DNA of 64,000 nucleotides from Escherichia coli (GCF_046105845.1 NZ_CP151004.1); one strand, 5' to 3'. Counted from the first letter of the stretch, positions 4,112-56,176 are shown. Notes: generated by a model not told the origin, from the sequence alone. Program-made: numbers and translations.

Positions 4112-5347
4112 TTACAACGTTACCGGGTGTTCTTTCTCTCCCTTCTTAAACTTCACTTCTCCGAGATCAATACAACCCACCGGGCAGACGTGACCACAAA
4201 GCAGGCAACCAACACATTTCTCGGTATTACAATGCGGTGTACGGGTTTTCTCGCTCCATTCCATCGCCTGGTGACCGCCGTCGTAACAGGAAATATAACA
4301 GCGTCCACAGCCAACACATTTATCAAGATTGATATGGGGATAGACAATATAACTGCGGTCTAAATCTTCCGCGGGAACAATATTGTGATTCGCCAGACCT
4401 ACCATTTCCTGCAACGAATCAAACCCCTGATCGGCAAGATAATGTGACAACCCGCTCGCCATATCTTCCACTATCCGATACCCGTACTGCATAATGCCGG
4501 TGGTCACCTGCAACGTCGCTGCACCGAGCAATAAAAACTCTGCCGCATCTTCCCAGGTTTCAATACCGCCGATACCGCTGATCGGGAAATCGCGCAGCTC
4601 TGGATGGGTGCGCATTTGCTGAATAAAGCGCAGGGCGATCGGTTTTACCGCTTTACCGGAATATCCGGAAATACTCGATTTACCGTTAACGATCGGCATA
4701 CCGATTTTCTGATTAAGATCGATATTGGTGATGGATTTAACGGTGTTAATCGCCGCAATGCCATCTGCGCCGCCGCGCTTCGCCGCCAGCGCCACTTCGC
4801 ACATATCACCGATATTCGGCGTCATCTTCGCCAGCATTGGCAGCGTGGAACCACGTTTTACTGCCCGACAATATTTTTCTACCAGCTCCGGGCTTTGCCC
4901 GACATCGCTACCCATCGCATGAGAAGTCATTTGCGGACAGGAGAAGTTACACTCGATCATATCCGCGCCAGCTTCTTGCACCAGACGCGCCAGCTCTTCC
5001 CATTGCTGCTCATTTTCGCCCATGATTGAAGCGATCAATACTTTGTCCGGGTAATCTTCTTTCAGCCGACGCAGGGCGGCCAGATTATCTTCCAACGGAT
5101 GTTCAGCAATCTGCTCCATATTTTTGAAGCCGATAAAACCGGTATCTTCTTTCACCAGATGATCAAAACGCGGTGAGACTTCGTTGGCGATAAAAAAGCC
5201 GATCGTTTTAAACACCACGCCGCCCCAGCCAGTGTCGTAGGCTTTGGCACACATCTCATAGCAGTTGCCTACCGGCGAAGAAGAGAGGCAGAACGGGTTG
5301 GGAAACTTCACGCCGCAAAAAGTAATCGAAAGATCTTTCGTTAACAT
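4112..5347 (-). CDS. preA: NAD-dependent dihydropyrimidine dehydrogenase subunit PreA (Fe-S, DHODH-like)
   Basis: ORF with C-terminal 4Fe-4S ferredoxin cysteine clusters; start chosen at [10 protein letters not shown] to give 411 aa; overlaps preT stop. Confidence 0.92.
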
Positions 5348-6579
5348 GAGCAAGCTCCCTCTAAATAATGATGAATCGCCTCGGCGGCTTCTTTCCCGGT
5401 TTTCACGGCATAGACCACGGTTTTGTCACCCTCAACAATATCGCCAGCAGCAAAGACTTGCGGGTCGCGGGTCTGGTAATTTTGTGTATTGATGGTGTTA
5501 CGCTGCGGCTCTAACTCCGCAAAGGCATCCAGTCTGGCATGCTGACCGACGGCGAGAATAATTTTATCTGCCGCCATCGTCAGTTCGCCCGGTAACCGTA
5601 CATGCTTAAACGTGACTTTATTGCCTTCCACGGCTACTGGCGTGAATCCATCAATGATCGAAACGCCCAGCTCCCGGGCGCTGGCAAACTCTTTTTCGCT
5701 TGCCGGAAACTCATCTAACTCTTCACGCGCTACGCAAGTTACTGCCTGACAGCCGAGAACTTTCAGCGTGCTGGCTACGTCCATCGCGACATCACCGCCG
5801 CCGATAATTAATGCGCTTTGTGGAATGCTGATATCGCCTTGCGCCTGTCGTGCACGTTGCAAGAAGTCGACGGCAATCTCAACGTCGCTATGCTCAAACA
5901 GTGGTAGCCCCGAACCGCTCGATAACCCCACGGTGACCAGTACCGCGCGGTTTTCCGCTTTCAGCTGCTCCAGGGTGAGTGTTTTACCGATTTCGTTATT
6001 GCACTTAATGGTCACGCCCATTTTTTCAATACGGGCGATTTCTGCATCCAGTACTGATTGCGGTAACCGGAATTGCGGAATGCCGTTACGCAACCAGCCA
6101 CCGGCTTGTGCTTCTTTCTCATAGATCGTGACGTCATAACCCTGGTTTGTCAGTGTCACACTGGCCTGCAATCCGGCAGGACCCGCGCCAATAATGGCGA
6201 CTTTGCCGAGCGTTTTAGTACCGGGTTGATAAATTTCCATCCCAGTTTGTTGTTCAAAATCAGTAACAAAACGCTGTAAGCGACCGATATCAATGGGAGT
6301 ATCAACACCGGCACGGGTACAACCGCTTTGGCATAATTTCTCCGTCGGGCACACTCTGGCACAAACGGCACCGAGGGCATTATTTTCACGAATTGTCTCG
6401 GCAGCGCCTTTAAAATTACGAAAGTAGATTGAGCGAATAAATTTCCCCGGATCGGTCTGTGCCGGGCAAGCCTGACTACAGGGAGCGTCATGACATAATA
6501 AGCAGCGAGAGGCTTCTTTAATCGCCAGTAAAGGCGTAAAAGCCGGAGTGAGTTCATCCAGATAATTTTGTTGCGGCAT
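5341..6579 (-). CDS. preT: Dihydropyrimidine dehydrogenase subunit PreT (FAD/NAD-binding)
   Basis: 412-aa ORF with GAGPAG dinucleotide-binding motif and N-terminal Fe-S cysteines; upstream partner of preA. Confidence 0.92.
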
Positions 6580-6772
6580 GTGATCTTCCTTAATGCTATG
6601 AGTAATTAAGGCGAACGCTAAATAAATATTGCGTGCTGATATTAAGGCTATGCGCGTGGGGAAATTTAAACTGTGAAAGGATTCACAAATAGCTGCGGTT
6701 CAGAATGTTATATCCGCAGCTTATTGAGTGAAGTAATAATTATTCTCAATAATTAACAGAAAAGAGAAAATA

Positions 6773-8768
<1,996 letters not shown>

Positions 8769-15569: not shown

Positions 15570-15742
15570 AAAGTTCTTTTGTGTTGCATTGCTGGCGTAA
15601 ATGTCAGCAATGCAGCATTTCCTCACGATTCTCCTTTGACGATCGCACTTTTTGCTCGTTATGATGGCGTCGCTAGCCTCAGTAAATCCTTACTCCGGCG
15701 GTGCGCAACCCGTGCGCGTGAACCACTATCTGAATGCTCATC

Positions 15743-29555: not shown

Positions 29556-29852
29556 TCATCCTTGTTGCTGAAGCATGGGGAATAATTGTTCGCAAAGCAA
29601 AACACCGTTATTCATTGCTTCTACCCGTGCCTCGCTTTCTGTATTACGAAATTGTGCCAACACATGTGCCAGCCGATAAAAACCCACCGCGGTGAGGTCA
29701 TTCGCCAGCAACTCTGCCTGACCAATAGCACTCTGTTCCTGATAGCGCCAGCCGTTATGGAGCAGTTGAATAAGTAACGCCTGGCAGCGCATCAGCAACT
29801 GATGAGCGGTAGACGGCACAGGCAGAACGCTGGCAGAAGGTAGCGGTGCCAC
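29556..29852 (-). other. Open frame co-phased with yehQ downstream of its in-frame TGA (possible detached C-terminal segment)
   Basis: 98-codon ORF in the same frame as yehQ, separated from the TGA at 29877-29879 by 8 sense codons; begins with GTG; translated sequence is not low-complexity. Confidence 0.35.
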
Positions 29853-29876
29853 AGGCGCAGTTTCTGCGTCCAGCGC

Positions 29877-31556
29877 TCAGGCGCGGGTTTTGGTCATCAT
29901 TACCCGTGGTTCCAGTGTCAATTGCCCCTCAACAAAACTGACAAAGCCAGAAACCAGACTCACGGGGTCGTCTGTGTGTTGCAAAAGTGCCGCCATGCGT
30001 TCAACGGCAAAAGGAGAACAGGCAGATGCCGGAAGGGATAACGTCAGCACATTATCTTCCCCTTCGCCGCTAATGACCTGCGCGTCCAGTGTCTGGCGGC
30101 TGCTATCCCAACCAAGCGAAATACACTCCGCTACCGGCAGAATAAATAAGTTATCGACCTGGTTGAGTGGTCGTATGCAGGCGGGGGGACGCTGGCGTAA
30201 ATATTCCCGCAAAGCCACAATGCCCGACTGGCGCAACGGCGCGCTCAACATTTGCCAGGCGTCTGGCGACAGCGGCACAACGCTGCTTAAGCGGTTGCGG
30301 GTAGCTAACAACAGCTCGCCATCGGCACTGCGTTTTGCTGCTTGTGAAACAATTTGCCCACCTGCCAGTGCGCCAGCCAGAAAACTAAACAGCCGACGCG
30401 TCGCTGCCGGTGAGTTTTCCTGTTCGCTTCTCGGCCAACTACGCGAAAGATGCAAAATACTGCCAGTGTCGGGATCGGTAAACCAGATGCGTAAACCATA
30501 ATGCTCAATATCCTGCCAGCAACGCATACCTAAAGACACCAGCCGCAGATGATCAAGCTTTGCTTCTCCGGCAATGCCAGAGCCAACGACCGTGCGCCAC
30601 GGCACAGGAGGAACTTCACCAACACTGTCGCGCCGGGCCATCTCTTGTGCGCAATTTAATCGACTGTTTAATGCCGCAAGCTGACGTAAGCATTCTCCGA
30701 CATGATAGTGGCTGGCGCGGGCGTGGAAGGCATCAACGCTGGCGCGCAGTTGCCGTAGCGATTCACTCACCCAGCGCCAGTTGCAGCGTTCCGCCGCTTG
30801 CTGCGCGCGGCTGAAAGCAGCCTTGTAATGAATAAGCGGCTGGCTGATGCCGCCAAGCCATAACGCCTGGCTTAATTGCTGAACATATTGACGACACGCG
30901 TCGCCCTCATCGTTGGCAAACGGATCGTCAGATGATGTGACGTGTTCGCTGCGCATCTGCCAGATTAAATGAGTAAATTCCGCTTGCTGCGCTTTGGCCT
31001 GGACAAAGGCCTGTACTGCCAGTACGACATGTTCGCAAAGTGTGCCGTCAATACAATCACAGCGTGCGAAACGAATGCTGCTGCGGGAATAAAAACGTAC
31101 ATCGCTCATCGGTAAGCGGGCAGAGGGAATTTCGCCCGGCGTACAGAACAACTCAATGGTGATGCCTTTAGCGACCAGTGTCTGTGCGCGTTTGCGGGTG
31201 GCATCGGGCAGGGTAGCCAGTTCTTCCAGCCAGATTGCCGGATCCCACTCTTCTTCTTTTTCCGTAGGCTGGGTGGTGGCGCAAAGTCGCTGATAACTTA
31301 AAACCAGCATCACGCGATGGCGGCACATGCCGCTGGCCCCGCAGCTGCATTGAGCCTCTTTCAGTGCCTGACCGTTCGCCAGCTGGGTGCGGACACCGTC
31401 ACTGAAGGTGGCGATTAAAGCGCCGTTCTCATGGCTGATTTCCGGGACGTTGCCATTTTCCAGTTCTTTAAGGCTGCGCTTAACAAAACCGGCATTGCTT
31501 AACGCCGTCAAAGCTTGTGGTGTCAGTTCTAATAATTCCGGCCGTAGTGAATTCAT
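29877..31556 (-). CDS. yehQ: SWIM zinc-finger protein YehQ (ends at an in-frame TGA)
   Basis: 559-aa ORF with SWIM motif CSCGASGMCRHRVM (CxCxnCxH); ATGA overlap with yehP stop. Confidence 0.85.
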   Translation of the reverse strand: MNSLRPELLELTPQALTALSNAGFVKRSLKELENGNVPEISHENGALIATFSDGVRTQLANGQALKEAQCSCGASGMCRHRVMLVLSYQRLCATTQPTEKEEEWDPAIWLEELATLPDATRKRAQTLVAKGITIELFCTPGEIPSARLPMSDVRFYSRSSIRFARCDCIDGTLCEHVVLAVQAFVQAKAQQAEFTHLIWQMRSEHVTSSDDPFANDEGDACRQYVQQLSQALWLGGISQPLIHYKAAFSRAQQAAERCNWRWVSESLRQLRASVDAFHARASHYHVGECLRQLAALNSRLNCAQEMARRDSVGEVPPVPWRTVVGSGIAGEAKLDHLRLVSLGMRCWQDIEHYGLRIWFTDPDTGSILHLSRSWPRSEQENSPAATRRLFSFLAGALAGGQIVSQAAKRSADGELLLATRNRLSSVVPLSPDAWQMLSAPLRQSGIVALREYLRQRPPACIRPLNQVDNLFILPVAECISLGWDSSRQTLDAQVISGEGEDNVLTLSLPASACSPFAVERMAALLQHTDDPVSLVSGFVSFVEGQLTLEPRVMMTKTRA

Positions 31557-36060: not shown

Positions 36061-36171
36061 ATATTCATCCCTGAAATGTATTAATGAAATAAACGATATT
36101 TTACGCGCAATAAATGTTTTGCGCATTAGTTGTTTGAACGGAAAATATCTGGAAAGCAGATCACAGTAAAT

Positions 36172-36254
36172 AAAAAAACCTGCTGGTGAGGCAGGTTCTT
36201 TTATTTACTATTTTCAGGCCCAACACCGCAGCCTGTGCAACATCGTGTTCCAAC
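36172..36254 (-). ncRNA. Candidate OrzO-like antitoxin sRNA, copy 1
   Basis: Minus-strand TATAAT at 36266-36261 with TTGCAA -35 at 36289-36284 (17-bp spacer); ends at hairpin CCTGCCTCACCAGCAGG followed by TTTTTTT (36195-36172). Confidence 0.45.
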
Positions 36255-36283
36255 GAACGAATTATAACCATCGGTGGACCCCG

Positions 36284-36311
36284 TTGCAATTAAGATAATG
36301 AGATTTATAAT
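36284..36311 (+). promoter_or_regulatory. Sigma70 promoter of toxin mRNA, copy 1
   Basis: TTGCAA-16 bp-TATAAT; predicted start near 36318 gives a 5' UTR of about 175 nt. Confidence 0.5.
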
Positions 36312-36492
36312 CCAGACGGTTGGGACGTTGCGCCGGATCGGACCAATTTCAAGTCCTGGCTACCGGACGGGTGGTGCTGCAGGTGGTGCCCTGATCCGGA
36401 GTGCAACATCGTGGTCCAACATACGTAAACCAGTATCGACAGGCAGTGTAAGGGTAAGGTGCTGGTGTTGCGCTCCTTAATAAGGAGAGCGG

Positions 36493-36582
36493 ATGGACAC
36501 GCAGACACAAAAGTTAACCGTGCTCATTGCTGTACTGGAGCTATTAGTGGCTCTGTTACGGTTGATTGATTTGTTGAAGTAA
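36493..36582 (+). CDS. zorO: Type I toxin, ZorO/ZorP family (29 aa), copy 1
   Basis: AGGAGAG Shine-Dalgarno then MDTQTQKLTVLIAVLELLVALLRLIDLLK*; which copy is zorO versus zorP cannot be told from sequence alone. Confidence 0.75.
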   Translation: MDTQTQKLTVLIAVLELLVALLRLIDLLK

Positions 36583-36604
36583 TGGGCAAATTGAAACGCA
36601 TCTA

Positions 36605-36634
36605 AGGGGGAATACCGCTTCCCCCTTTAATAAA
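36605..36634 (+). terminator. Terminator of toxin mRNA, copy 1
   Basis: AGGGGGAA-taccgc-TTCCCCCT stem followed by TTAATAAAAT. Confidence 0.4.
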
Positions 36635-36777
36635 ATGATTACATCTTCCATTAATTCACCTGATAACTTTTTTCTTATTTATAAATTCATCGATTTTATA
36701 ATTAACGTACCATTTCGCCGGGATGTGAATATTTATGGTGGCTATTGGCGAAAAATATCTGGAAAGTAGATCGCAGA

Positions 36778-36862
36778 AAATAAAAGAACCTGCTGGTGAG
36801 GCAGGTTCTTTTATTTACTACTTTGATGTTAAGTTACTGATAGTGCAACATGGCATCTCAAC
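36778..36862 (-). ncRNA. Candidate OrzP-like antitoxin sRNA, copy 2
   Basis: Minus-strand TATAAT at 36874-36869 and TTGCAA at 36897-36892 (17-bp spacer); hairpin at 36789-36805 followed by a U-rich tract. Confidence 0.4.
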
Positions 36863-36891
36863 GAACGAATTATAACCACCGCTGGACCGTG

Positions 36892-36919
36892 TTGCAATTA
36901 AGATAATGAGATTTATAAT
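36892..36919 (+). promoter_or_regulatory. Sigma70 promoter of toxin mRNA, copy 2
   Basis: TTGCAA-16 bp-TATAAT. Confidence 0.5.
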
Positions 36920-37100
36920 CCTGACTGTTGGGAAGTTGCGCCGGATCGAACCCATTTCAAGTCCTGGCTACCGGACGGGTGGTGCCGCAGGTAGTGCTCT
37001 GATCCGGAGTGCAACATGGCGACTCAACATACGTAAATCAGTATCGACAGGCAGTGTAAGGGTAAGGTGCTGGTGTTGCGCTCCTTAATAAGGAGAGCGG

Positions 37101-37190
37101 ATGGACACGCTGACACAAAAGTTAACCGTGCTCATTGCCGTACTGGAGCTATTAGTGGCTCTGTTACGGTTGATTGATTTGTTGAAGTAA
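37101..37190 (+). CDS. zorP: Type I toxin, ZorO/ZorP family (29 aa), copy 2
   Basis: MDTLTQKLTVLIAVLELLVALLRLIDLLK*; differs from copy 1 only at codon 4 (CTG Leu versus CAG Gln). Confidence 0.75.
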   Translation: MDTLTQKLTVLIAVLELLVALLRLIDLLK

Positions 37191-37209
37191 TGGGCAAATT
37201 GAAACGCAA

Positions 37210-37563
37210 CTAAGGGGGAAAACCGCTTCCCCCTTTAATAAAGTAATATTCTATTAGTTGGTTGAATATATTCTGTAGTTTACGATTAAAAATTGCTATT
37301 ACAGTTTCAGGTGATTCACCTCGTAATTTCCGCTCATCAATACACTCATCTCTTATATAAATCAACGCATCATTTATTAGCGGGTCAGCATCTTCTCGAT
37401 CACGTTGATGAAATGTTGGACGTAGCCGGAATCGCTCCAGTCGATAGACAGAACCTGTAAATAATTCAGAGCGTTTATGGATCTCAAGCCTGAAGGAAAA
37501 CGGCTCTTCAGGTACAGGGGCCTCATAATCGTAAATAGTGATCAGCTCTTTTTGCACGATCAT
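37210..37563 (-). CDS. yehK: Uncharacterised protein YehK
   Basis: 117-aa ORF starting MIVQKELITIYDYEAP; its last 10 codons lie inside the copy-2 terminator hairpin (37213-37242). Confidence 0.7.
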   Translation of the reverse strand: MIVQKELITIYDYEAPVPEEPFSFRLEIHKRSELFTGSVYRLERFRLRPTFHQRDREDADPLINDALIYIRDECIDERKLRGESPETVIAIFNRKLQNIFNQLIEYYFIKGGSGFPP

Positions 37564-37623: not shown

Positions 37624-40600
37624 TTAATGGAAAATAACGTCGGGTGCGCTTAACGCTTCACTCAAATCAAACACATCAAGTTCGGCAAAAGTGACAGATT
37701 TATTGTCACGGTATACACAAAGAGAACGGAAGCTCATTAGCGCTTTGCTATCAACATTGTAGCGGTTAAAACTGGATGAAAACTTAAGGACCAGCCGGTA
37801 CTCGCCCAGGCCATAGACAAATGCGTCCTCATAGCCTGACTCCCAGCCTTTGTATCGCATTCCCATAAGCTGCCCAACGGTAGCGGATTTACCTTCCCAG
37901 CGAGTCAGGCTGTTACTGGTTGACTCGTCAGGCGTGAGCAGCACCGTGCGGCGCGACAACTGGCGAAAAGGCGGCATAATTTCGTAATCGGCAAAAAGCT
38001 GTGCAAATTCACTGCGCATTTCTGCTGTCATTTCTAACGGGTGGGCAATGCCAATCAGAGCATCCGCAGGAAGGTCAATGGGCTCATCCTGCGCATTGCA
38101 GAACTCCCCCTCAGCGGCCACACGAAAGGCGTTGAGTAAACGACGCGGTTCATTTGCCGGATAAACACCCCATATTAATCGCTGAGTAACCAGGCGGGTA
38201 AAGGGATGATTAACAAACAGAGAACGAAAATCTGCCAGCGACCAGCGTCGGATGGTGCGCAGGGCCGTTTCAAGACGCGGGAGCAGGTTTTTGCTCACCT
38301 GAGTAGCATCTTTTTTTAGCCCTTTTAGTCGTGCCAGTGCCTCGGGCGCTTTCAGTTGATCGTCATCGGCGCGCAACCGTGGAACGCTTTTCTGGCGAAC
38401 GTTTTGCTGATCAAAGATAACCGGGTTGAGGTTTTCATCGAAGCGAACGGTAAACTGCCGGGGACCAAAATCAAAACTCAACGCCTGCGGATCATCAAGG
38501 CCCAGTGTTGGGACTAATCTGTCCGCTAACTCTTCCTGGCTTAGCCCGCGATTTTCTGCGACTACCTGAAGAAATTCCGCCGCGTTATCACGTAAGGGGC
38601 GGGATTTCGCCCGTTGCGATATATGATGCAGCTGCATCAGCGCCATATCATTATTCATCAGGGTAAGGATGTTCAGGCCACTGACAGCACGGGCAGATTT
38701 GCCTTCTTGTGGCCAGGCGAGGATCTGTGTCGTCAGATCCCGAGCCGTGCTTTCGTCACCAAAGAGACTTAACGCCAGAAATGCCCAGTTGTCTTTTGCA
38801 GGGGCACCAGCTTGTTGCCAGGCGGTGAAGAGATCCCAGGCAAAAGCTGCGAGCGTTTGTGGTTGGCAAAACGTTTTCAGTTGTTCCAGCCCGCTATAAA
38901 AACGTCCCCCCTGGGTAAAGCGCAGCATTTCGCCGATAATTTCCAGAGCGTCATCGGTAACAGGTTGATTATTAGTGATAAGGCGCGGCCTGGACCACAT
39001 TTGCGGATGCCAGAAATCAGGGGCTTTTGGCATGCGCGCCGGGTAAATTTCCAGCGGGTTCTGGGTAAGTATTTTTTCCAGGGCTGGCCACACATCAGCA
39101 CGATCCCAGCGGTTTGCCACGGTTTGTAGTAATTCGCCATGTCCCTGTTCGTAAAGTAAACGCAGGGCAAATAATGCAGCTTCGCTATTATCGCTGGATT
39201 TAATGAAGACAAGAGGGATAAGTGCAGTAGCCGTATGTTCCGGCCATTGTAAAATCCACTGGCGGGCCAGATCACGCTGCGCCGCGAAACGTCGCCAGAC
39301 GCGGGCAACGGGCAGGGCCAGTTCGGTTGCGCCGAAATTTAAAATTAACGGAAATGTTTCTTTTGGACGATGTGAAAAAGCCAACAGCAGACCTGGTAGA
39401 GCATCCAATCCGAAGATACTGAGAAAATAGTCCTCACCCGCAGACAGATGCTTTTTCTCATTGATACGTAGCCAGAAAGTCAAAGCCATCTCACGCGGCA
39501 ACTGCGCCAATAAATACAGGTTCCAGATACTCTTTTCCCGACGATAGCGTGAGTAGCTGTCATTTTCCCATATGTTAATTAACACTTCTACGTGACCGCT
39601 GCGAAGCGCCTGTTCTGCTAATTGAGCTTCCGGGGAGCTCCAGCCATTCATGATCTCTTCAACCCGCCCTGGGTAGTAATGCCACTGAACAATGAGTGAA
39701 TTGCGTGCAGCATCCAGTTTTCCGGGGAGTATATAATTCAAAAACAGCCATACATCATCTCCAAAACCCAGCTCCTGTAGTACAACTCGTCCACTTTTAT
39801 GTTCCATGCGTTCCGCAAGAGATTCCGTGCTGAAATAACGGGCAGACTCAGTGGCGGCAAGCCTCTCTCGTTCGCCTGGTTGCCAGTAAACTTGCGGCGT
39901 TAATTCGAACGGTGCCAAATCAAGACGTGGAACTGTCATTTTTTTCTTACTACGCCACGGTGGTGAAACGAGGATTTCAGGCAGATTGCTGTTATCGGTG
40001 CCATCAATAACCGGTTTGGGCGGTGCCGATAAATAACTATTCAGCACTGCCCGGGCTTGAGTACTTAACCACGGCATCACTTCTGCTGCCAGTTGTGGCT
40101 GCGATGCCATCAGCGTTTGTAACAGTGTACGCCAGTATTCATCTCGAGCTTTTTGCTGTGCAGGCAGCTTTTTGTCTTCGATGATTGGATAACCAGGGCG
40201 CGCAGGTGGTTCTTTTAGCGCCAGAAGCTCTGCCAGTGCGGCAAGCGTCGCATGGGGGAAATTTTTACTGTATTTAGCTACACGTTGCAGGCTGGGTTTG
40301 TTTTTATCAGCAACTAACAGCAGGGTGCGGATGACCTGCGGATGGTTAATTTGTACCAGCAGACTGCCGCAATCTTCTTTATGGGCATACATTGCCAGGC
40401 GTGGAACGGCTGCCAGTCCTTGTTCGCGCAAAAGGGCAGCGCAGGCCGCGTAGCCGAAGTGGTTTTCATGCGACATGTAGCTGGCTTCCCGATCGCTAAA
40501 TATATCCTGGCTCCAGTAGCGTTCGAGTTTTTTCACCGCTCTGGGGTCATTAGCAACAACTTTTAACCACTCCTTAGAATGAAAATGAGTCCGCGGGCAT

Positions 40601-41256
40601 TCAAGGTCTACCAACTCATTGGCGATTTCTGGTTTTTCCGGGAGGATCAGCGCAATAAAAGGGCGGCGAACTTTGGTTATTCCTGGCAGTGCGGCAATGA
40701 GTTTGTCGGCGCAACGCTGCCAGCTGCTTTCCTCTGCCAGAGAGAGATGCTTACGCAGTCGGAGATCGAATTCGTTATAGGTTTCTGAGCGATAACCATA
40801 GCCATAATCCTCGTCCTGATACTGCAATGTCACTAGCAGAGGATCACTTTCATAACACCGTGCAATAAACTGGCGTGCAATCACCACCTCAGTCGCATAT
40901 TCCAGTCCCTCTTGTTGGACGATTTCGTCGAGCAACTGTTGGCTATCATTTTGCGCGATACAGGCTAGCGCCGCCATTGTCCGGGCCGGAACTGAGGGTT
41001 TGTGTTCTCCGATCAAGTTGATGGCCTGCGTAATGGCCGACTGCCACTCCAGTGAAAAATTTTCATAACGCCAGACAATGTTTTTTTTCTTCTCAGCTTT
41101 TTGTAGCAATTCATCACCCAGTGTCTGGATGAGGCTTTCAGTGATAACAGGCACTGGTTCGCCCGGCCAACTGCGATGGCTGAGCGGCGTTTTGCCTTTT
41201 TTATATTTCAGTTCCACTTGGGCGTTATCCGCCAGCCACGGTAATTCCTTGTCCAT
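37624..41256 (-). CDS. yehI: Large DUF4132-family protein YehI
   Basis: 1210-aa ORF; extensive paralogy with molR (RLRKHLSLAEESSWQRCADKLIAALPGI versus RLRKHLALAEETLWQRCVDKFITALPDI). Confidence 0.93.
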   Translation of the reverse strand: MDKELPWLADNAQVELKYKKGKTPLSHRSWPGEPVPVITESLIQTLGDELLQKAEKKKNIVWRYENFSLEWQSAITQAINLIGEHKPSVPARTMAALACIAQNDSQQLLDEIVQQEGLEYATEVVIARQFIARCYESDPLLVTLQYQDEDYGYGYRSETYNEFDLRLRKHLSLAEESSWQRCADKLIAALPGITKVRRPFIALILPEKPEIANELVDLECPRTHFHSKEWLKVVANDPRAVKKLERYWSQDIFSDREASYMSHENHFGYAACAALLREQGLAAVPRLAMYAHKEDCGSLLVQINHPQVIRTLLLVADKNKPSLQRVAKYSKNFPHATLAALAELLALKEPPARPGYPIIEDKKLPAQQKARDEYWRTLLQTLMASQPQLAAEVMPWLSTQARAVLNSYLSAPPKPVIDGTDNSNLPEILVSPPWRSKKKMTVPRLDLAPFELTPQVYWQPGERERLAATESARYFSTESLAERMEHKSGRVVLQELGFGDDVWLFLNYILPGKLDAARNSLIVQWHYYPGRVEEIMNGWSSPEAQLAEQALRSGHVEVLINIWENDSYSRYRREKSIWNLYLLAQLPREMALTFWLRINEKKHLSAGEDYFLSIFGLDALPGLLLAFSHRPKETFPLILNFGATELALPVARVWRRFAAQRDLARQWILQWPEHTATALIPLVFIKSSDNSEAALFALRLLYEQGHGELLQTVANRWDRADVWPALEKILTQNPLEIYPARMPKAPDFWHPQMWSRPRLITNNQPVTDDALEIIGEMLRFTQGGRFYSGLEQLKTFCQPQTLAAFAWDLFTAWQQAGAPAKDNWAFLALSLFGDESTARDLTTQILAWPQEGKSARAVSGLNILTLMNNDMALMQLHHISQRAKSRPLRDNAAEFLQVVAENRGLSQEELADRLVPTLGLDDPQALSFDFGPRQFTVRFDENLNPVIFDQQNVRQKSVPRLRADDDQLKAPEALARLKGLKKDATQVSKNLLPRLETALRTIRRWSLADFRSLFVNHPFTRLVTQRLIWGVYPANEPRRLLNAFRVAAEGEFCNAQDEPIDLPADALIGIAHPLEMTAEMRSEFAQLFADYEIMPPFRQLSRRTVLLTPDESTSNSLTRWEGKSATVGQLMGMRYKGWESGYEDAFVYGLGEYRLVLKFSSSFNRYNVDSKALMSFRSLCVYRDNKSVTFAELDVFDLSEALSAPDVIFH

Positions 41257-41265
41257 GCTCTTTCC

Positions 41266-44200
41266 TTATTCAAACAGGGCTTCAATATCGTTAATGAGTT
41301 CGCTGGCGGTGATGTCGTCGAGCACGGAGAACTGCGCTTCCTGTGTTGAATTACTCCCCCAGCCATAGCTTTCCGCTTTGCCTTCCCATAGCCACAGCTT
41401 ACTCAAGAGTTGCTCGGCACTGAGTTCGGCTGGCGACATGCCGACCGCAAAACCTTCATCGATTTTCATGATTAACGACCAGCGGCCCAGCGGTTTGATC
41501 ATCCAGCCGATCCAGCCACCGTCCTGCGGTTCACCACGCATCCAGCCTTTATTCGCCAGCCCCATTACCCGACCGCTCGGGCATTTTCTGCCTGCCCAGC
41601 GGGTCAATTCGCTGGCATTGCGCTCGGTTTCTGTCAGGGCGTAACTGTTACGGTCGAGCTGGCGGAACGGCGGTAGCAGTTCGTAGTCGGCAAAAAGTTG
41701 ACCAAAGGCGGCAGCATCCGTGGGTGATATTTCCAGAACGTGAGGAATCCAACAGAGATATCGCCTTCCGGCAGGGTGAAAAGATCATCGTCTGCGGTGC
41801 TGTAGCTGTTATCTTCCGCCACGCGAAAGCAAGCCAGTAGCTCGTTTTCGGTGCTATAAACGCCCCAAATCAGACGGCGGGTTAAGTGACGAACCAGCGG
41901 ATGCTCAACCAGGAAGAGCTGAAAGTTTTCCGGCGACCAGCGGCGGCGCAGGCACATGGCGGATTCCAGCCTTGCTACCTGCTGGGCGGCGACGGTACGC
42001 GCATCTTTTTTCAGCAATTTGTAGCGGTTAACAGCATCGTTTGCCTGTGATTCATCATCGCTTTTATTGGGTTTAGGTAAGTCTTTCAGGCGGCTGCCGG
42101 AAACATCGCGCACAAACGGTTTTAAGGTTTCATCAAAGCTGACGGTGAACTGGCGTGGGCCAAAATCCAGCAGCAGCGAACCGTTATCATCCAGACCGAG
42201 ATCCGGTGCTAACCGATCTTCAAGCTCCGCTACCGTCAGTTCGCGACTCTCGGCAATGTCGGCAATTTTTTCTTTTGCCCGCTCCTGTAATGCTTTGAAT
42301 TTCAGTTTCTGGGCGATCCCGTTAAGCTGCATCAGGGCGATATCACTACCGATAGCAGCGAGAATATCCAGCCCGACGGTGGCGCGTTTATGCTGGGATT
42401 CACCAGGCCAGGCGCGAATCAAAGGCGTCAGTTTGCGGGCGGTGTCGTCGTTACCGAGAACGCCTAACGCAGTGAACGCCCAGCTCTCTTTCGATGGTGC
42501 GCCAGCGGCCAGCCAGGCGGTAAACAGATCCCAGGTAAATTCAGCCAGTGAGTCGGCGGTACAGGCGGCTTTCACCTGCAATAATCCCGGATACAGTGCC
42601 TCTTCCTGAGGGAAGCGGAGCATTTCACCGAGGCGTAGGAGGGCGCTATCTGGCAGTGATTGGGCATTTGCTTTTAATACCGGGCGGGTCCAGATCGATG
42701 GCTGATAAAAGGCCGGAAGAGTGGGGATTTTTGTCGGGTGATTATCTAAGGGATCGAGCGCAAGCATAGCGTTCACCGCATCTATTACTTCCGGCTGGTT
42801 ATAACGCCGGGCGATTTCTTGCAGTAATGGCTGATGATCGTTTTCGATAAGCATACGCAAGGCAGCGCGGGCGTTATCCTGGGCTTCACCGGCTTTGCCG
42901 AGCGCCGCAGGCAGTAGGCCGGTAATGGCGTGTTCCGGGTATTTCAGCAGCCAGGTGCGGGCGTCTTGTCGTAGGGTTTTGAGTTTGTTGAAGGCGCGGG
43001 CGATCAGTGGCGCTAATTCGATAGCCGCAAAATATTGTGCTACAGGCAGAGCTTCTTGTGGATAGCGTGAAAAGGAGTGAATAAAACCCTGTAACCCAGT
43101 GAGTTGCAGGTGCGTCATGACAAACTCGACACCGACGTGTGGCTCTTTACTGAGGACATTCCACGCCTGCGCTGTCTTTTCGATAGGCAGGGCGGCTAAC
43201 ATGTAAAGCTGCCATTCCCGTTGATAGGAGTGCCAGAAGGTTTTAAATTCGCTGATCAGCGCGGAATAATGTCCCCTTTGCCAGAGATCTATAGCAGCAT
43301 CAGGCGCTTTCATATACTGGCCATTATTCCAGCGATTGAAACCCAGACGTGCCAGGTAGTTCTGAATATCCTCTTTTTGGCCGATGTCTATTTGATGTGC
43401 GTGCCAGCGATGCCTTGCATGAATCTCTTTTTCTGCCGTCTCGGTCAATGTGCAGCATGACTCCAACGATAATGGCGTTAAATCCAATACCGGTATAACA
43501 GATTTTTTCTTTTTCGAAAGCCAGGGCGGTGAGACTAATACGGCAGGCAGTAGATCGGCGCAGGCATGGTTTGAGGGCTGTGTCAGTTGTTGCAGGCATG
43601 CTTTCAGCACTGCAACTGCGGGTGTTGAGAGCCAGGGAGTGACCTGATCTGCCAGTGCCGGTTGCGAGATAAGCATCGTCATCAGCATAATGCGCCAACT
43701 ATTCTCTTCTTTTTGCGCAAGAAGTTCCGCCAGTGCCGCCAGTGCCGTGTGTGGGAACGCAGCGCAAGCCTTAGTCATTCGTTCATGGCAGCGTTTAGTT
43801 TTGCCAGACACACGTATAAGTAGCATTAATGCTTGTGGGTGATTGATCTCTGCGAGAATGCTTCCGCAAAGATCAGCATAAGCATAGGGGGCGAAGCGAG
43901 CGATTCCAGCAATCCCTTGCTCCTGCAAAACGGTGACATTCCAGATGCAACCATGGTAATAGTCATTAAAAAGGTCGTACGCGCAATAAGATTCCAGTGC
44001 TTTGAGTAAGGAAGATTCTTGAACAACAAGTTTCAGCCATTCAACAGTTTGGACATTTTTCTGCTTCAGTAACCGTCGTGCGACTTCTTCTGCAATCTCC
44101 GGGCGTTCCGGTAGCATTAGCGCTACCATCGGTTGTTGAACGGGAGGAATATCAGGTAAAGCTGTAATGAATTTATCTACACAGCGTTGCCACAAAGTTT

Positions 44201-45014
44201 CTTCTGCAAGAGCCAAATGCTTACGCAGTCGAACGTCAAAGGGGGTAACACAATGTGCATGGTTTAATAATGGCTGAAAAGTAATGTGTATGCTTGTTCT
44301 GTGATAAGCGCAATCGAACGAGATATATTGCATGGCAATAAACATATCCACGGCAAATTCTAGTCCGTAGACATAGACAATTTCATCCATGAGTTCAGGG
44401 CATTCGCCCCAGAATTTACGCGAAACCAGACCAACCTGTACAGCCAACGCAGCAGGAGAAAGTGGACCATTAGCGAGAGCTTCATTGATATTCTGCTGCC
44501 AGTTAGCAGAACATGCACTGAAATCGTATGTTGTTAATTTTCCTGATAGATTATGAATATCCTGACCTAAATTCATAAGGAGGCTGTCTTGTGGTTCGCT
44601 TACAGCATCCCCAGGAAAACGTCGGGAAGGTAAGGCCTCCTGAGACTTTTTCTCCGATAGATGGATAGTGGAATCATCTGTAAGCCACGGGCATGGTGTC
44701 TCAGCAGGTTCAGCAACCATACTTTGGTCAAATACGACAGTGGTTTCTGCCACGCCAGTTGTATCTACTTCGATCGTTTCTATTTTGATTGCGGTTTGGG
44801 ATGGCGAAGATAATTCTTCCACATACCCCTTCTTCACCTTCTCCGCAATCAGCTTCAGTCCCGCTTTTTCCGCCGCTGCTGCATCCGCAAAACTTTTTAC
44901 CTGGCTTTGTCCGTTGGTGCCGACTTTACCCCAGTTGATGTGCAGTTCGTTTCCCTGCTGCTCCACCGCCCAGAATTTATGTGATTTTTCGTCCTGATAG
45001 ATAAAGTGTTTCAT
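41266..45014 (-). pseudogene. molR: molR (yehH): WGR-domain/DUF4132 giant protein gene with a frameshift near the C-terminus
   Basis: ORFs 41634-45014 (1126 aa) and 41266-41607 are in different frames; the second frame continues the YehI-like C-terminal homology (ISPTDAAAFGQLFADYELLPPFRQL...); N-terminus has a WGR-like motif (KFWAVEQQGNELHINWGKVGTNG). Confidence 0.8.
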
Positions 45015-45154
45015 TCTGCATCCCTGTAATTTTATCCAGTTGAATGCTGATGCTACCAGTATTTATGCGGGTTAGAGAGAGACAAAATCGCAAGAAAACA
45101 ACTTTAGGAATTTATAAAGAAAAGGCGCTGTCGATGCAGCGCCTTGAAGGGGGA

Positions 45155-56043: not shown

Positions 56044-56176
56044 AACCAAACGACTCGGGGTGCCCTTCTGCGTGAAGGCTGAGAAATACCCGTATCACCT
56101 GATCTGGATAATGCCAGCGTAGGGAAGTCACGGACCACCAGGTCATTGCTTCTTCACGTTATGGCAGGAGCAAACT
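56044..56176 (+). ncRNA. TPP (THI-box) riboswitch in the thiM leader
   Basis: Leader contains GGGGTGCCCTTCTGCGTGAAGGCTGAGAAATACCCGTATCACCTGATCTGGATAATGCCAGCGTAGGGAA; Shine-Dalgarno GGAG at 56167-56170 lies in the expression platform. Confidence 0.85.

What the first reader, a model, noticed from the sequence alone, without database searches (positions are those of the whole stretch)
41266..45014. molR is split by a frameshift close to its C-terminus
The 1126-codon ORF and the downstream 113-codon ORF are in different frames. The downstream frame, read upstream of its first ATG, carries the continuation of the YehI-like C-terminal homology (ISPTDAAAFGQLFADYELLPPFRQL... versus EFAQLFADYEIMPPFRQL in YehI). 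Homology switches frame between the segments ...FTLPEGDIS and YLCWIPHVLEISPTD..., which places the lesion at about 41700-41770. I recall molR as a pseudogene in K-12 as well, so this gene may be repeatedly inactivated.
Basis: seen in the sequence. Interest (0 to 1): 0.4.

Follow-up and report, generated by a model that had tools for sequence, protein, structure and literature searches.

The report
Frameshifted molR/yehH pseudogene in E. coli
A single missing C splits the large WGR–DUF4132 gene (molR/yehH) next to metG in this rare E. coli lineage; the lesion is real and private to that lineage, but it is an ordinary pseudogene in a gene that many E. coli lineages, K-12 included, have disabled in other ways.

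Summary
On the minus strand, the 1126-codon ORF (45014-41634) and the downstream frame (41748-41266) are two halves of one 1249-codon gene. They are separated by the loss of one C between window 41749 and 41748 (GTT GGC ATT became GTT GG ATT, codon 1089). All 21 comparison genomes have GGC or GGT there. The missing base is not in a homopolymer. The same deletion is in three independent read-set assemblies that are 99.97-100% identical to the window, so it is a real allele of a clone. None of 5,426 complete E. coli genomes carries it. The frameshift falls inside DUF4132, leaving profile positions 1-106 of 179. It removes 160 conserved residues, so loss of function is likely but inferred. K-12's lesions are different: a codon-275 stop, whose exact 61-mer is in 706 of 5,426 genomes, plus an extra G. 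Other lineages carry IS5, IS26/CTX-M-15, IS1-deletion or other frameshift lesions. In a systematic sample, 4 of 15 genomes had the gene as a pseudogene, so it is repeatedly inactivated but usually intact. The same lineage also has a private nonsense codon in yehQ, in the same cluster. Interest is low: this is a new allele of a known kind.

The parts
41634..45014 (-). 5' ORF of the split molR/yehH-like gene: codons 1-1089 are native, codons 1090-1126 are out of frame, stop at 41636-41634
   Evidence: 98% protein identity to the intact WP_085458883.1 after repair.
44814..45002 (-). WGR domain (aa 5-67)
   Evidence: Pfam PF05406, E = 1.2e-18. The only PDB relative is 2ra8_A, which covers aa 2-79.
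41542..42098 (-). DUF4132 domain (aa 973-1158 of the intact protein), cut in two by the frameshift
   Evidence: Pfam PF13569. The intact allele matches profile 1-179/179 (E = 2e-51). The window ORF matches only 1-106/179.
41748..41749 (-). Lesion: one C missing between these two bases (GTT GGC ATT became GTT GG ATT). Codon 1089 stays Gly (GGA), and the frame shifts after it.
   Evidence: the only indel in 3.9 kb. (21 other genomes have GGC or GGT; the window and 3 Logan contigs lack the base). (no exact match in 5,426 genomes).
41637..41747 (-). 37 out-of-frame codons (FLTFWKYHPRMLPPLVNFLPTTNCYRRSASSTVTVTP) that end the truncated product
41266..41748 (-). Remnant frame: the 160 native C-terminal codons plus stop (41268-41266), no longer joined to the gene. 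The mechanical 113-codon ORF (41266-41607) and a called 99-aa ORF lie inside it.
   Evidence: It contains family-invariant W, S-E and about 15 further nearly invariant residues. It has one private substitution, E to K, at window 41466.
37624..41256 (-). yehI, an intact paralogue (DUF4132, 1210 aa). Its ATG lies 9 nt after the original molR stop, so it is probably co-transcribed.
45122..45145 (-). Terminator-like hairpin after metG. It separates metG from the molR promoter region (45015-45121).
   Evidence: The molR promoter was mapped in K-12 as BglJ-RcsB activated (PMC3950696). It was not tested in this window.
29877..29879 (-). Second lesion in the same cluster: yehQ codon 560 TGG (Trp) became TGA, truncating 666 aa to 559 aa
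   Evidence: No exact match in 5,426 genomes. The truncated product is present in Logan assemblies of the same lineage.

Best explanation
This is a lineage-specific pseudogene. In the ancestor of a rare E. coli clone, one C was lost from codon 1089 (GGC) of the 1249-codon WGR-DUF4132 gene between metG and yehI. That gene is the orthologue of K-12 yehF/yehH, historically called molR.

Translation now leaves the native frame after Gly1089, reads 37 unrelated codons and stops at 41636-41634. The product lacks the last 160 residues. These include the second half of DUF4132, the conserved 'IPHxLE...FGQLFADYELLPPFRQL' block and the family-invariant W and S-E residues. The remaining 483 nt are a dead remnant.

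Shown: the lesion, its reality in independent data, its absence elsewhere, and the conservation of what is lost.

Inferred:
- The truncated protein is non-functional.
- Terminating 378 nt before the yehI start removes the close spacing between the molR stop and the yehI start, and may reduce yehI expression.
- The whole yehH-yehQ module is under relaxed selection in this clone, because yehQ carries a private nonsense codon as well.
For: - Single indel against the intact allele, and repair restores a 1249-aa ORF.
- 21 of 21 other genomes keep the base.
- The deletion is present in ERR13115083, ERR4034258 and SRR12605517 contigs with 0-3 SNPs over 9-18 kb. It is also on an NCBI contig of 4,744,735 bp.
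- It is absent from 5,426 complete E. coli genomes and from the GTDB species representatives.
- The exact MetG and YehI of the window have consecutive NCBI protein accessions in two assemblies (HBB8114296/7, HFX4492298/7). This implies no protein was issued for the gene between them (inference from NCBI numbering practice).
- DUF4132 is truncated at profile position 106/179.
- The region from about aa 700 onwards is at least 86% identical in all pairwise comparisons among 17 intact or repaired alleles, while N-terminal parts fall to 22-44%.
- Invariant and nearly invariant family residues lie downstream of the break.
- yehQ W560* is private to the same lineage.
- Only these 2 of 54 complete genes in the window are disrupted.
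Against: - No expression or phenotype data exist, so a 1089-residue product with an intact WGR domain and the long central region could keep part of its function.
- The clustering of two lesions in one module is only suggestive. My arithmetic gives P about 0.015 by gene count and about 0.06 by coding length.
- Only one private substitution is seen in the remnant. There is therefore no measurable decay after the frameshift, and the lesion may be recent.
Confidence: 0.9

Rival explanations
1. Sequencing or assembly artefact: the gene is intact in the organism and the missing base is an error, for example a homopolymer miscall.
For: Single-base indels are the commonest assembly error. No complete RefSeq E. 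coli genome shares the deletion.
Against: The missing C is flanked by GG and A, not in a run. Three assemblies of separate public read sets (two ERR, one SRR accession) carry the identical deletion while differing from the window by 0, 2 and 3 SNPs. Consecutive NCBI accessions for MetG and YehI in two assemblies are consistent with a pseudogene call.
Confidence: 0.02
2. The gene is still functional as a truncated or two-piece product. Either the 1126-aa protein (WGR plus central region plus half of DUF4132) retains activity, or the C-terminal piece is translated separately from an internal start (for example ATG 41565) and reassembles with it.
For: A gene caller predicts a 99-aa ORF in the remnant. 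87% of the protein is unchanged. In K-12 the N-terminal fragment YehF is still annotated as a protein.
Against: The break is inside a single Pfam domain. No natural relative among 17 intact or repaired alleles, or among the distant homologues, has this split. The residues between 1090 and the internal ATG include the most conserved motif and would be missing from both pieces.
Confidence: 0.06
3. Programmed -1 ribosomal frameshifting or transcriptional slippage restores the reading frame, so the split is regulatory and not a defect.
For: The downstream frame is open across the lesion (41784-41266), so a shift anywhere in 41637-41784 would give a long product.
Against: Reading the sequence, there is no X XXY YYZ heptamer or long homopolymer in 41634-41784. 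All relatives encode one continuous ORF. A shift downstream of the lesion would still replace conserved residues.
Confidence: 0.01
4. The downstream ORF is an unrelated gene and the family normally ends near 41634.
For: None found.
Against: The remnant is 96% identical to the C-terminus of intact alleles. Pfam DUF4132 spans the junction in intact alleles. Distant homologues cover the whole C-terminal 350 aa.
Confidence: 0.01

Closest known systems
E. coli K-12 yehF (b2115) plus yehH pseudogene (b4499), formerly molR_1/2/3
   Same: Same position (metG - gene - yehI) and same WGR...DUF4132 architecture. The C-terminal third is 92% identical in DNA. Also inactivated (PMC3950696).
   Different: The lesions differ and are independent. 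K-12 has a stop at codon 275; its exact 61-mer is in 706 of 5,426 genomes. K-12 also has an extra G at L002 7320 that its near-identical relative ECCHD184 lacks. The K-12 allele belongs to another allelic class, only about 72% identical in protein.
Intact 1249-aa allele (WP_085458883.1 in NZ_CP062824.1; WP_001215557.1 in strain 1190; WP_024229799.1 in MEI003)
   Same: Same allelic class (96.5-98% protein identity), same length once the C is restored, same neighbours.
   Different: These are intact. The class is a minority: 154 of 5,426 genomes align over at least 80% of the query.
ST131 clade C2 sublineage L1a 'disrupted DUF4132 region' (TnMB1860 / IS26-blaCTX-M-15 insertion)
   Same: The same gene is inactivated in a successful clone (PMC9334617; example MB1159).
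   Different: The mechanism is transposon insertion with loss of the 5' part, not a point frameshift. There the lesion is a by-product of acquiring resistance genes.
O157:H7 (both tandem copies pseudogenes), HL15 (IS5), 50EVAW (IS1-bounded deletion of yehH to part of yehL)
   Same: Further independent losses at the same locus.
   Different: The lesion types and positions differ.
YehI (paralogue immediately downstream)
   Same: DUF4132 C-terminal domain with the shared motif FAQLFADYE..PPFRQL. About 39% identity overall.
   Different: It has no WGR domain and is intact in the window. It is itself a pseudogene in some other strains.

Membership tests
WGR + DUF4132 proteins (MolR/YehH family) | N-terminal WGR domain (PF05406) | tested here: met
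   E = 1.2e-18, aa 7-67 of the window ORF. PDB 2ra8_A matches aa 2-79.
WGR + DUF4132 proteins (MolR/YehH family) | Complete C-terminal DUF4132 domain (PF13569, 179 profile positions) in one reading frame | tested here: not met
   The window ORF covers profile 1-106 only. The intact allele covers 1-179. The rest lies in the other frame.
WGR + DUF4132 proteins (MolR/YehH family) | Orthologous position between metG and yehI | tested here: met
   Gene order is identical to K-12 and to 20 other genomes.
Mutational frameshift pseudogene | Close relatives encode one uninterrupted ORF, and homology continues in a second frame after a single indel | tested here: met
Mutational frameshift pseudogene | The lesion is reproducible in independent sequence data | tested here: met
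   Three Logan read-set assemblies plus an NCBI contig.
Mutational frameshift pseudogene | Loss of function of the product | not testable with these tools
   Only inferred from the loss of conserved residues.
Programmed ribosomal frameshift gene | Slippery site, and a frameshift conserved among relatives | tested here: not met
   No slippery heptamer or homopolymer near the site. Every relative has a single ORF.
Molybdate metabolism regulator (the historical meaning of 'molR') | Demonstrated regulation of molybdate-related genes | not testable with these tools
   The name is carried over in annotation. No family model or paper found here supports a function. NCBIfam gave only a sub-threshold WGR-region hit, and PADLOC gave none.
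Known anti-phage defence systems (PADLOC-DB v2) | Match to a defence-protein model | tested here: not met
   0 families for the intact MolR-like protein and for YehI.

The most novel reading that the evidence does not exclude
The metG-proximal yeh cluster may be a diversifying 'conflict' module, for example one that senses phages or mobile elements, and lineages may gain, diversify and discard it often. The cluster holds one to three tandem WGR/DUF4132 paralogues plus YehL (MoxR ATPase), YehM (DUF5682), YehP (VWA) and YehQ (SWIM).

Evidence that does not exclude this:
- Within-species alleles fall to 22-44% identity at aa ~50-350 and ~550-650, next to a C-terminus that is at least 86% identical.
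- Copy number varies between strains.
- At least seven independent inactivations are seen.
- The window lineage has two private hits in the cluster, in molR and in yehQ.

On this reading the frameshift would be one instance of recurrent loss of a costly or obsolete system. No direct evidence for such a function was found, and PADLOC gave no hit.
Probability: 0.2. Interest if true: 0.5.

Novelty: new member of a known kind. Interest (0 to 1): 0.15.

Why it matters
For annotation, 41266-45014 should be one pseudogene, not a 1126-aa protein plus a small hypothetical ORF.

Biologically the finding adds one more independent knockout to a gene that K-12 and several other lineages have already lost. 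A second private knockout lies in the same cluster, in yehQ. This is mild evidence that the uncharacterised yehH-yehQ module is dispensable and is lost as a unit.

The combination of recurrent loss with extreme allelic diversity in the N-terminal two-thirds could guide a functional study of this large, unstudied E. coli gene family. The frameshift itself is ordinary.

Tried and rejected
- An exact-pattern scan of the GTDB species-representative genomes for the deletion junction gave 0 hits.
- Exact look-up of the repaired 1249-aa protein, with K or with E at residue 1184, found neither in the 15-billion-protein collection. No sampled intact ancestor of this precise allele exists.
- PADLOC gave no hits. 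NCBIfam gave only a far sub-threshold hit over the WGR region. PDB sequence search found only the WGR domain.
No fold comparison of DUF4132 was possible.
- Literature searches: 'DUF5682' gave 0 papers. yehI/L/M/P/Q gave only a genome announcement. WGR+MoxR+SWIM+vWA gave nothing relevant. 'yehH pseudogene' gave nothing useful.
- A Shigella origin was considered, because the best identity to any complete E. coli is only 98.0-98.5%. I rejected it as unlikely. The 64 kb is fully syntenic with E. coli strain 1190 and has no IS element, and NCBI names the exact MetG and YehI proteins as E. coli.
- The ~610-bp tandem repeat between yehK and yehL was first suspected to be a recent duplication or an insertion. 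It is the known two-copy zor-orz type I toxin-antitoxin locus.

Full report
**What is in the window.** On the minus strand the order is metG (47197-45155), a 1126-codon ORF (45014-41634), a short remnant running to 41266, then yehI (41256-37624). The metG stop is followed by a terminator-like hairpin at 45145-45122. The large ORF has an N-terminal WGR domain (aa 7-67). It has only the first 106 of 179 profile positions of DUF4132 (aa 973-1085). YehI and an intact relative of the large ORF each match essentially the whole DUF4132 profile.

**The lesion.** I aligned window 41200-45100 (reverse complement) to the best-matching complete E. coli genome, NZ_CP062824.1. That genome annotates a single 1249-aa 'DUF4132 domain-containing protein' there.
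- The alignment has 58 substitutions and exactly one indel: a C present in the reference and absent from the window, between 41749 and 41748.
- In coding terms, GTT GGC ATT CCT CAC (V G I P H) became GTT GGA TTC CTC AC. Gly1089 is kept, 37 out-of-frame codons follow, and translation stops at 41636-41634.
- The native frame continues from 41748 for 160 codons to the original stop at 41268-41266.
- Re-inserting the C gives an uninterrupted 1249-codon ORF, 98% identical to the reference protein.
- The remnant is 96% identical (E = 1.8e-93) to the C-terminus of an intact allele from another class.

**Is it real?**
- The missing base lies in GG[C]ATT, not in a homopolymer.
- In 21 other genomes fetched here the codon is GGC or GGT.
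- The exact 1126-aa truncated protein is on record from an NCBI contig of 4,744,735 bp. It is also in Logan assemblies of three separate public read sets: ERR13115083, ERR4034258 and SRR12605517.
- Those contigs contain the same junction. They differ from the window by 0, 2 and 3 substitutions over 9.4, 17.8 and 12.0 kb.
- The exact MetG and YehI proteins of the window are named E. coli by NCBI. In two assemblies they have consecutive accession numbers (HBB8114296/7 and HFX4492298/7). By NCBI numbering practice this means no protein was issued for the gene between them (inference).
- The deletion is therefore a genuine allele of a small clone.
- It is private. A 101-bp probe across the junction found no exact match in 5,426 complete E. 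coli genomes; the best hits are 99.0%, which is the one-base gap. A junction pattern found nothing in the GTDB species representatives.
- The source lineage is poorly represented. The best identity to any complete genome is 98.0-98.5% over metG-yehD, over the gene itself and over 25 kb of flank.

**What is lost.**
- The break is at 87% of the length but inside DUF4132.
- Among 17 intact or repaired alleles, the region from about aa 700 to the end is at least 86% identical in every pairwise comparison. Earlier parts fall to 22-44%.
- I searched with the last 350 residues. Homologues from Burkholderia, Cupriavidus, Massilia, Myxococcales and Actinokineospora cover 99-100% of the query.
- A 48-sequence alignment places three invariant residues (W259, S339, E340 of the query) downstream of the frameshift. 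About 15 further nearly invariant residues also lie there, including H193, L195, D211-Y212-E213, P217, F218, Q220 and R223. The nearly invariant G190 is the frameshift codon itself, Gly1089, which is kept.
- Loss of function is the likely consequence, but it is an inference.
- yehI starts 9 nt after the original stop. Premature termination 378 nt upstream may also reduce yehI expression. This too is inferred.

**Comparison with K-12 and other lineages.**
- K-12 annotates yehF (b2115, the WGR part) and pseudogene yehH (b4499) at this position. One paper lists molR (yehH) as 'disrupted in K12' and shows its promoter is activated by BglJ-RcsB (PMC3950696).
- K-12 has two lesions, neither shared with the window. 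The first is a stop replacing Leu at codon 275. The second is an extra G at L002 7320 that the near-identical strain ECCHD184 lacks.
- The exact K-12 61-mer containing the stop occurs in 706 of 5,426 complete genomes, including isolates from humans, cattle, mink, crayfish and beach water.
- Other independent lesions found:
  - an IS5 insertion in HL15;
  - IS26/blaCTX-M-15 truncation in ST131 MB1159, matching the TnMB1860 'disrupted DUF4132 region' reported in 184 ST131 L1a isolates (PMC9334617);
  - a frameshift and an internal stop in the two O157:H7 copies;
  - an IS1-bounded deletion from yehH into yehL in 50EVAW.
- For an unbiased sample I took every fourth of 60 evenly spaced hits. The gene next to yehI was a pseudogene in 4 of 15 genomes (H93, H97, H141, H149) and intact in 11.

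**Context of the locus.**
- The window's gene is the orthologue of the copy adjacent to yehI ('copy B'). Some strains carry a further paralogue ('copy A', about 47% identical) between metG and copy B.
- Copy B alleles fall into deeply divergent classes. The window's class is about 72-80% identical in protein to the others, and only 154 of 5,426 genomes align over at least 80% of its length.
- Downstream lie yehK, yehL (MoxR ATPase), yehM (DUF5682), yehP (VWA) and yehQ (SWIM).
- In the window yehQ carries TGG to TGA at codon 560 (29879-29877), truncating 666 aa to 559.
- This stop is also absent from all complete genomes. It is present in Logan assemblies, including one from ERR13115083, the read set that also carries the molR deletion.
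- I compared all 54 complete genes of the window with strain 1190. Only molR and yehQ are disrupted.
- Both lesions fall in the 7-gene cluster. My arithmetic gives P about 0.015 by gene count and about 0.06 by coding length. This is suggestive, not conclusive, of relaxed selection on the whole module.

**Function.** No function is established. PADLOC has no model for these proteins. NCBIfam gives only a sub-threshold hit over the WGR region. The PDB contains only a WGR-domain relative. The name 'molybdate metabolism regulator' is historical and is not supported by anything found here.

**Verdict.** The observation and the interpretation are both supported. This is a real, lineage-private, single-base-deletion pseudogene of the WGR-DUF4132 gene molR/yehH. 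It is a new allele of a known kind, in a gene already known to be broken in K-12 and shown here to be broken in several other ways elsewhere. Interest is low. The locus-level pattern of hypervariable alleles, copy-number variation, recurrent loss and a second hit in yehQ is the only part that might repay further study.

Noticed in passing
window 29877-29879 (yehQ, minus strand; gene 29556-31556): A premature stop in yehQ (SWIM zinc-finger protein): TGG (Trp560) became TGA, giving 559 aa instead of 666. No exact match in 5,426 complete E. coli genomes. Present in Logan assemblies of the same lineage.
   Followed up: yes
window 36139-37243 (yehK-yehL spacer); Rfam hits at 36172-36247 and 36782-36855 (minus strand): A tandem repeat of about 610 bp, 92% identical between copies. 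Each copy carries an OrzO-P antitoxin RNA (RF02083, 101 and 90 bits). This is the two-copy zor-orz type I toxin-antitoxin locus. The K-12 spacer is only 306 bp. The repeat coincides with contig ends in short-read assemblies of this lineage.
   Followed up: partly
window 41266-45014, compared with L001, L006, L009, L013-L025 and L028: Within-species alleles of this gene are extremely divergent at aa ~50-350 and ~550-650 (minimum pairwise identity 22-44%). They are at least 86% identical from aa ~700 onwards. The window's allelic class aligns over at least 80% of its length in only 154 of 5,426 genomes.
   Followed up: partly
L014 2493-6293 (Z226-1); also L022, L025, L013, L011: Some E. coli strains have an additional tandem paralogue ('copy A', about 1266 aa, about 47% identical) between metG and the yehH-position gene. 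The locus therefore holds two or three WGR/DUF4132-family genes, depending on the strain.
   Followed up: partly
window 41466 (remnant frame): A private non-synonymous change, Glu to Lys at residue 1184 of the repaired protein, where all 21 other alleles have Glu. It is consistent with relaxed constraint after the frameshift, but it is a single event.
   Followed up: partly
L016 (2014C-3599), L013 (LSC52), L007 (HL15): The paralogue yehI is itself annotated as a pseudogene (frameshifted or internal stop) in some strains in which the upstream gene is intact or also broken.
   Followed up: no
L026 3501-5345 (K-12 yehQ) compared with L014 19203-21203: K-12 yehQ is annotated at 1845 nt (614 aa), against 2001 nt (666 aa) in Z226-1 and strain 1190. 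The K-12 copy may also be shortened at its 3' end.
   Followed up: no
L012 (strain 50EVAW) 5200-6938: An IS1-family element sits directly after metG, and yehL lacks its N-terminus. This is a deletion removing yehH, yehI, yehK and the start of yehL.
   Followed up: no
window 15658-15738 (+) and 56046-56142 (+): A Peptidase-S11 RNA motif upstream of pbpG and a TPP riboswitch upstream of thiM. Both are expected features of this region.
   Followed up: no
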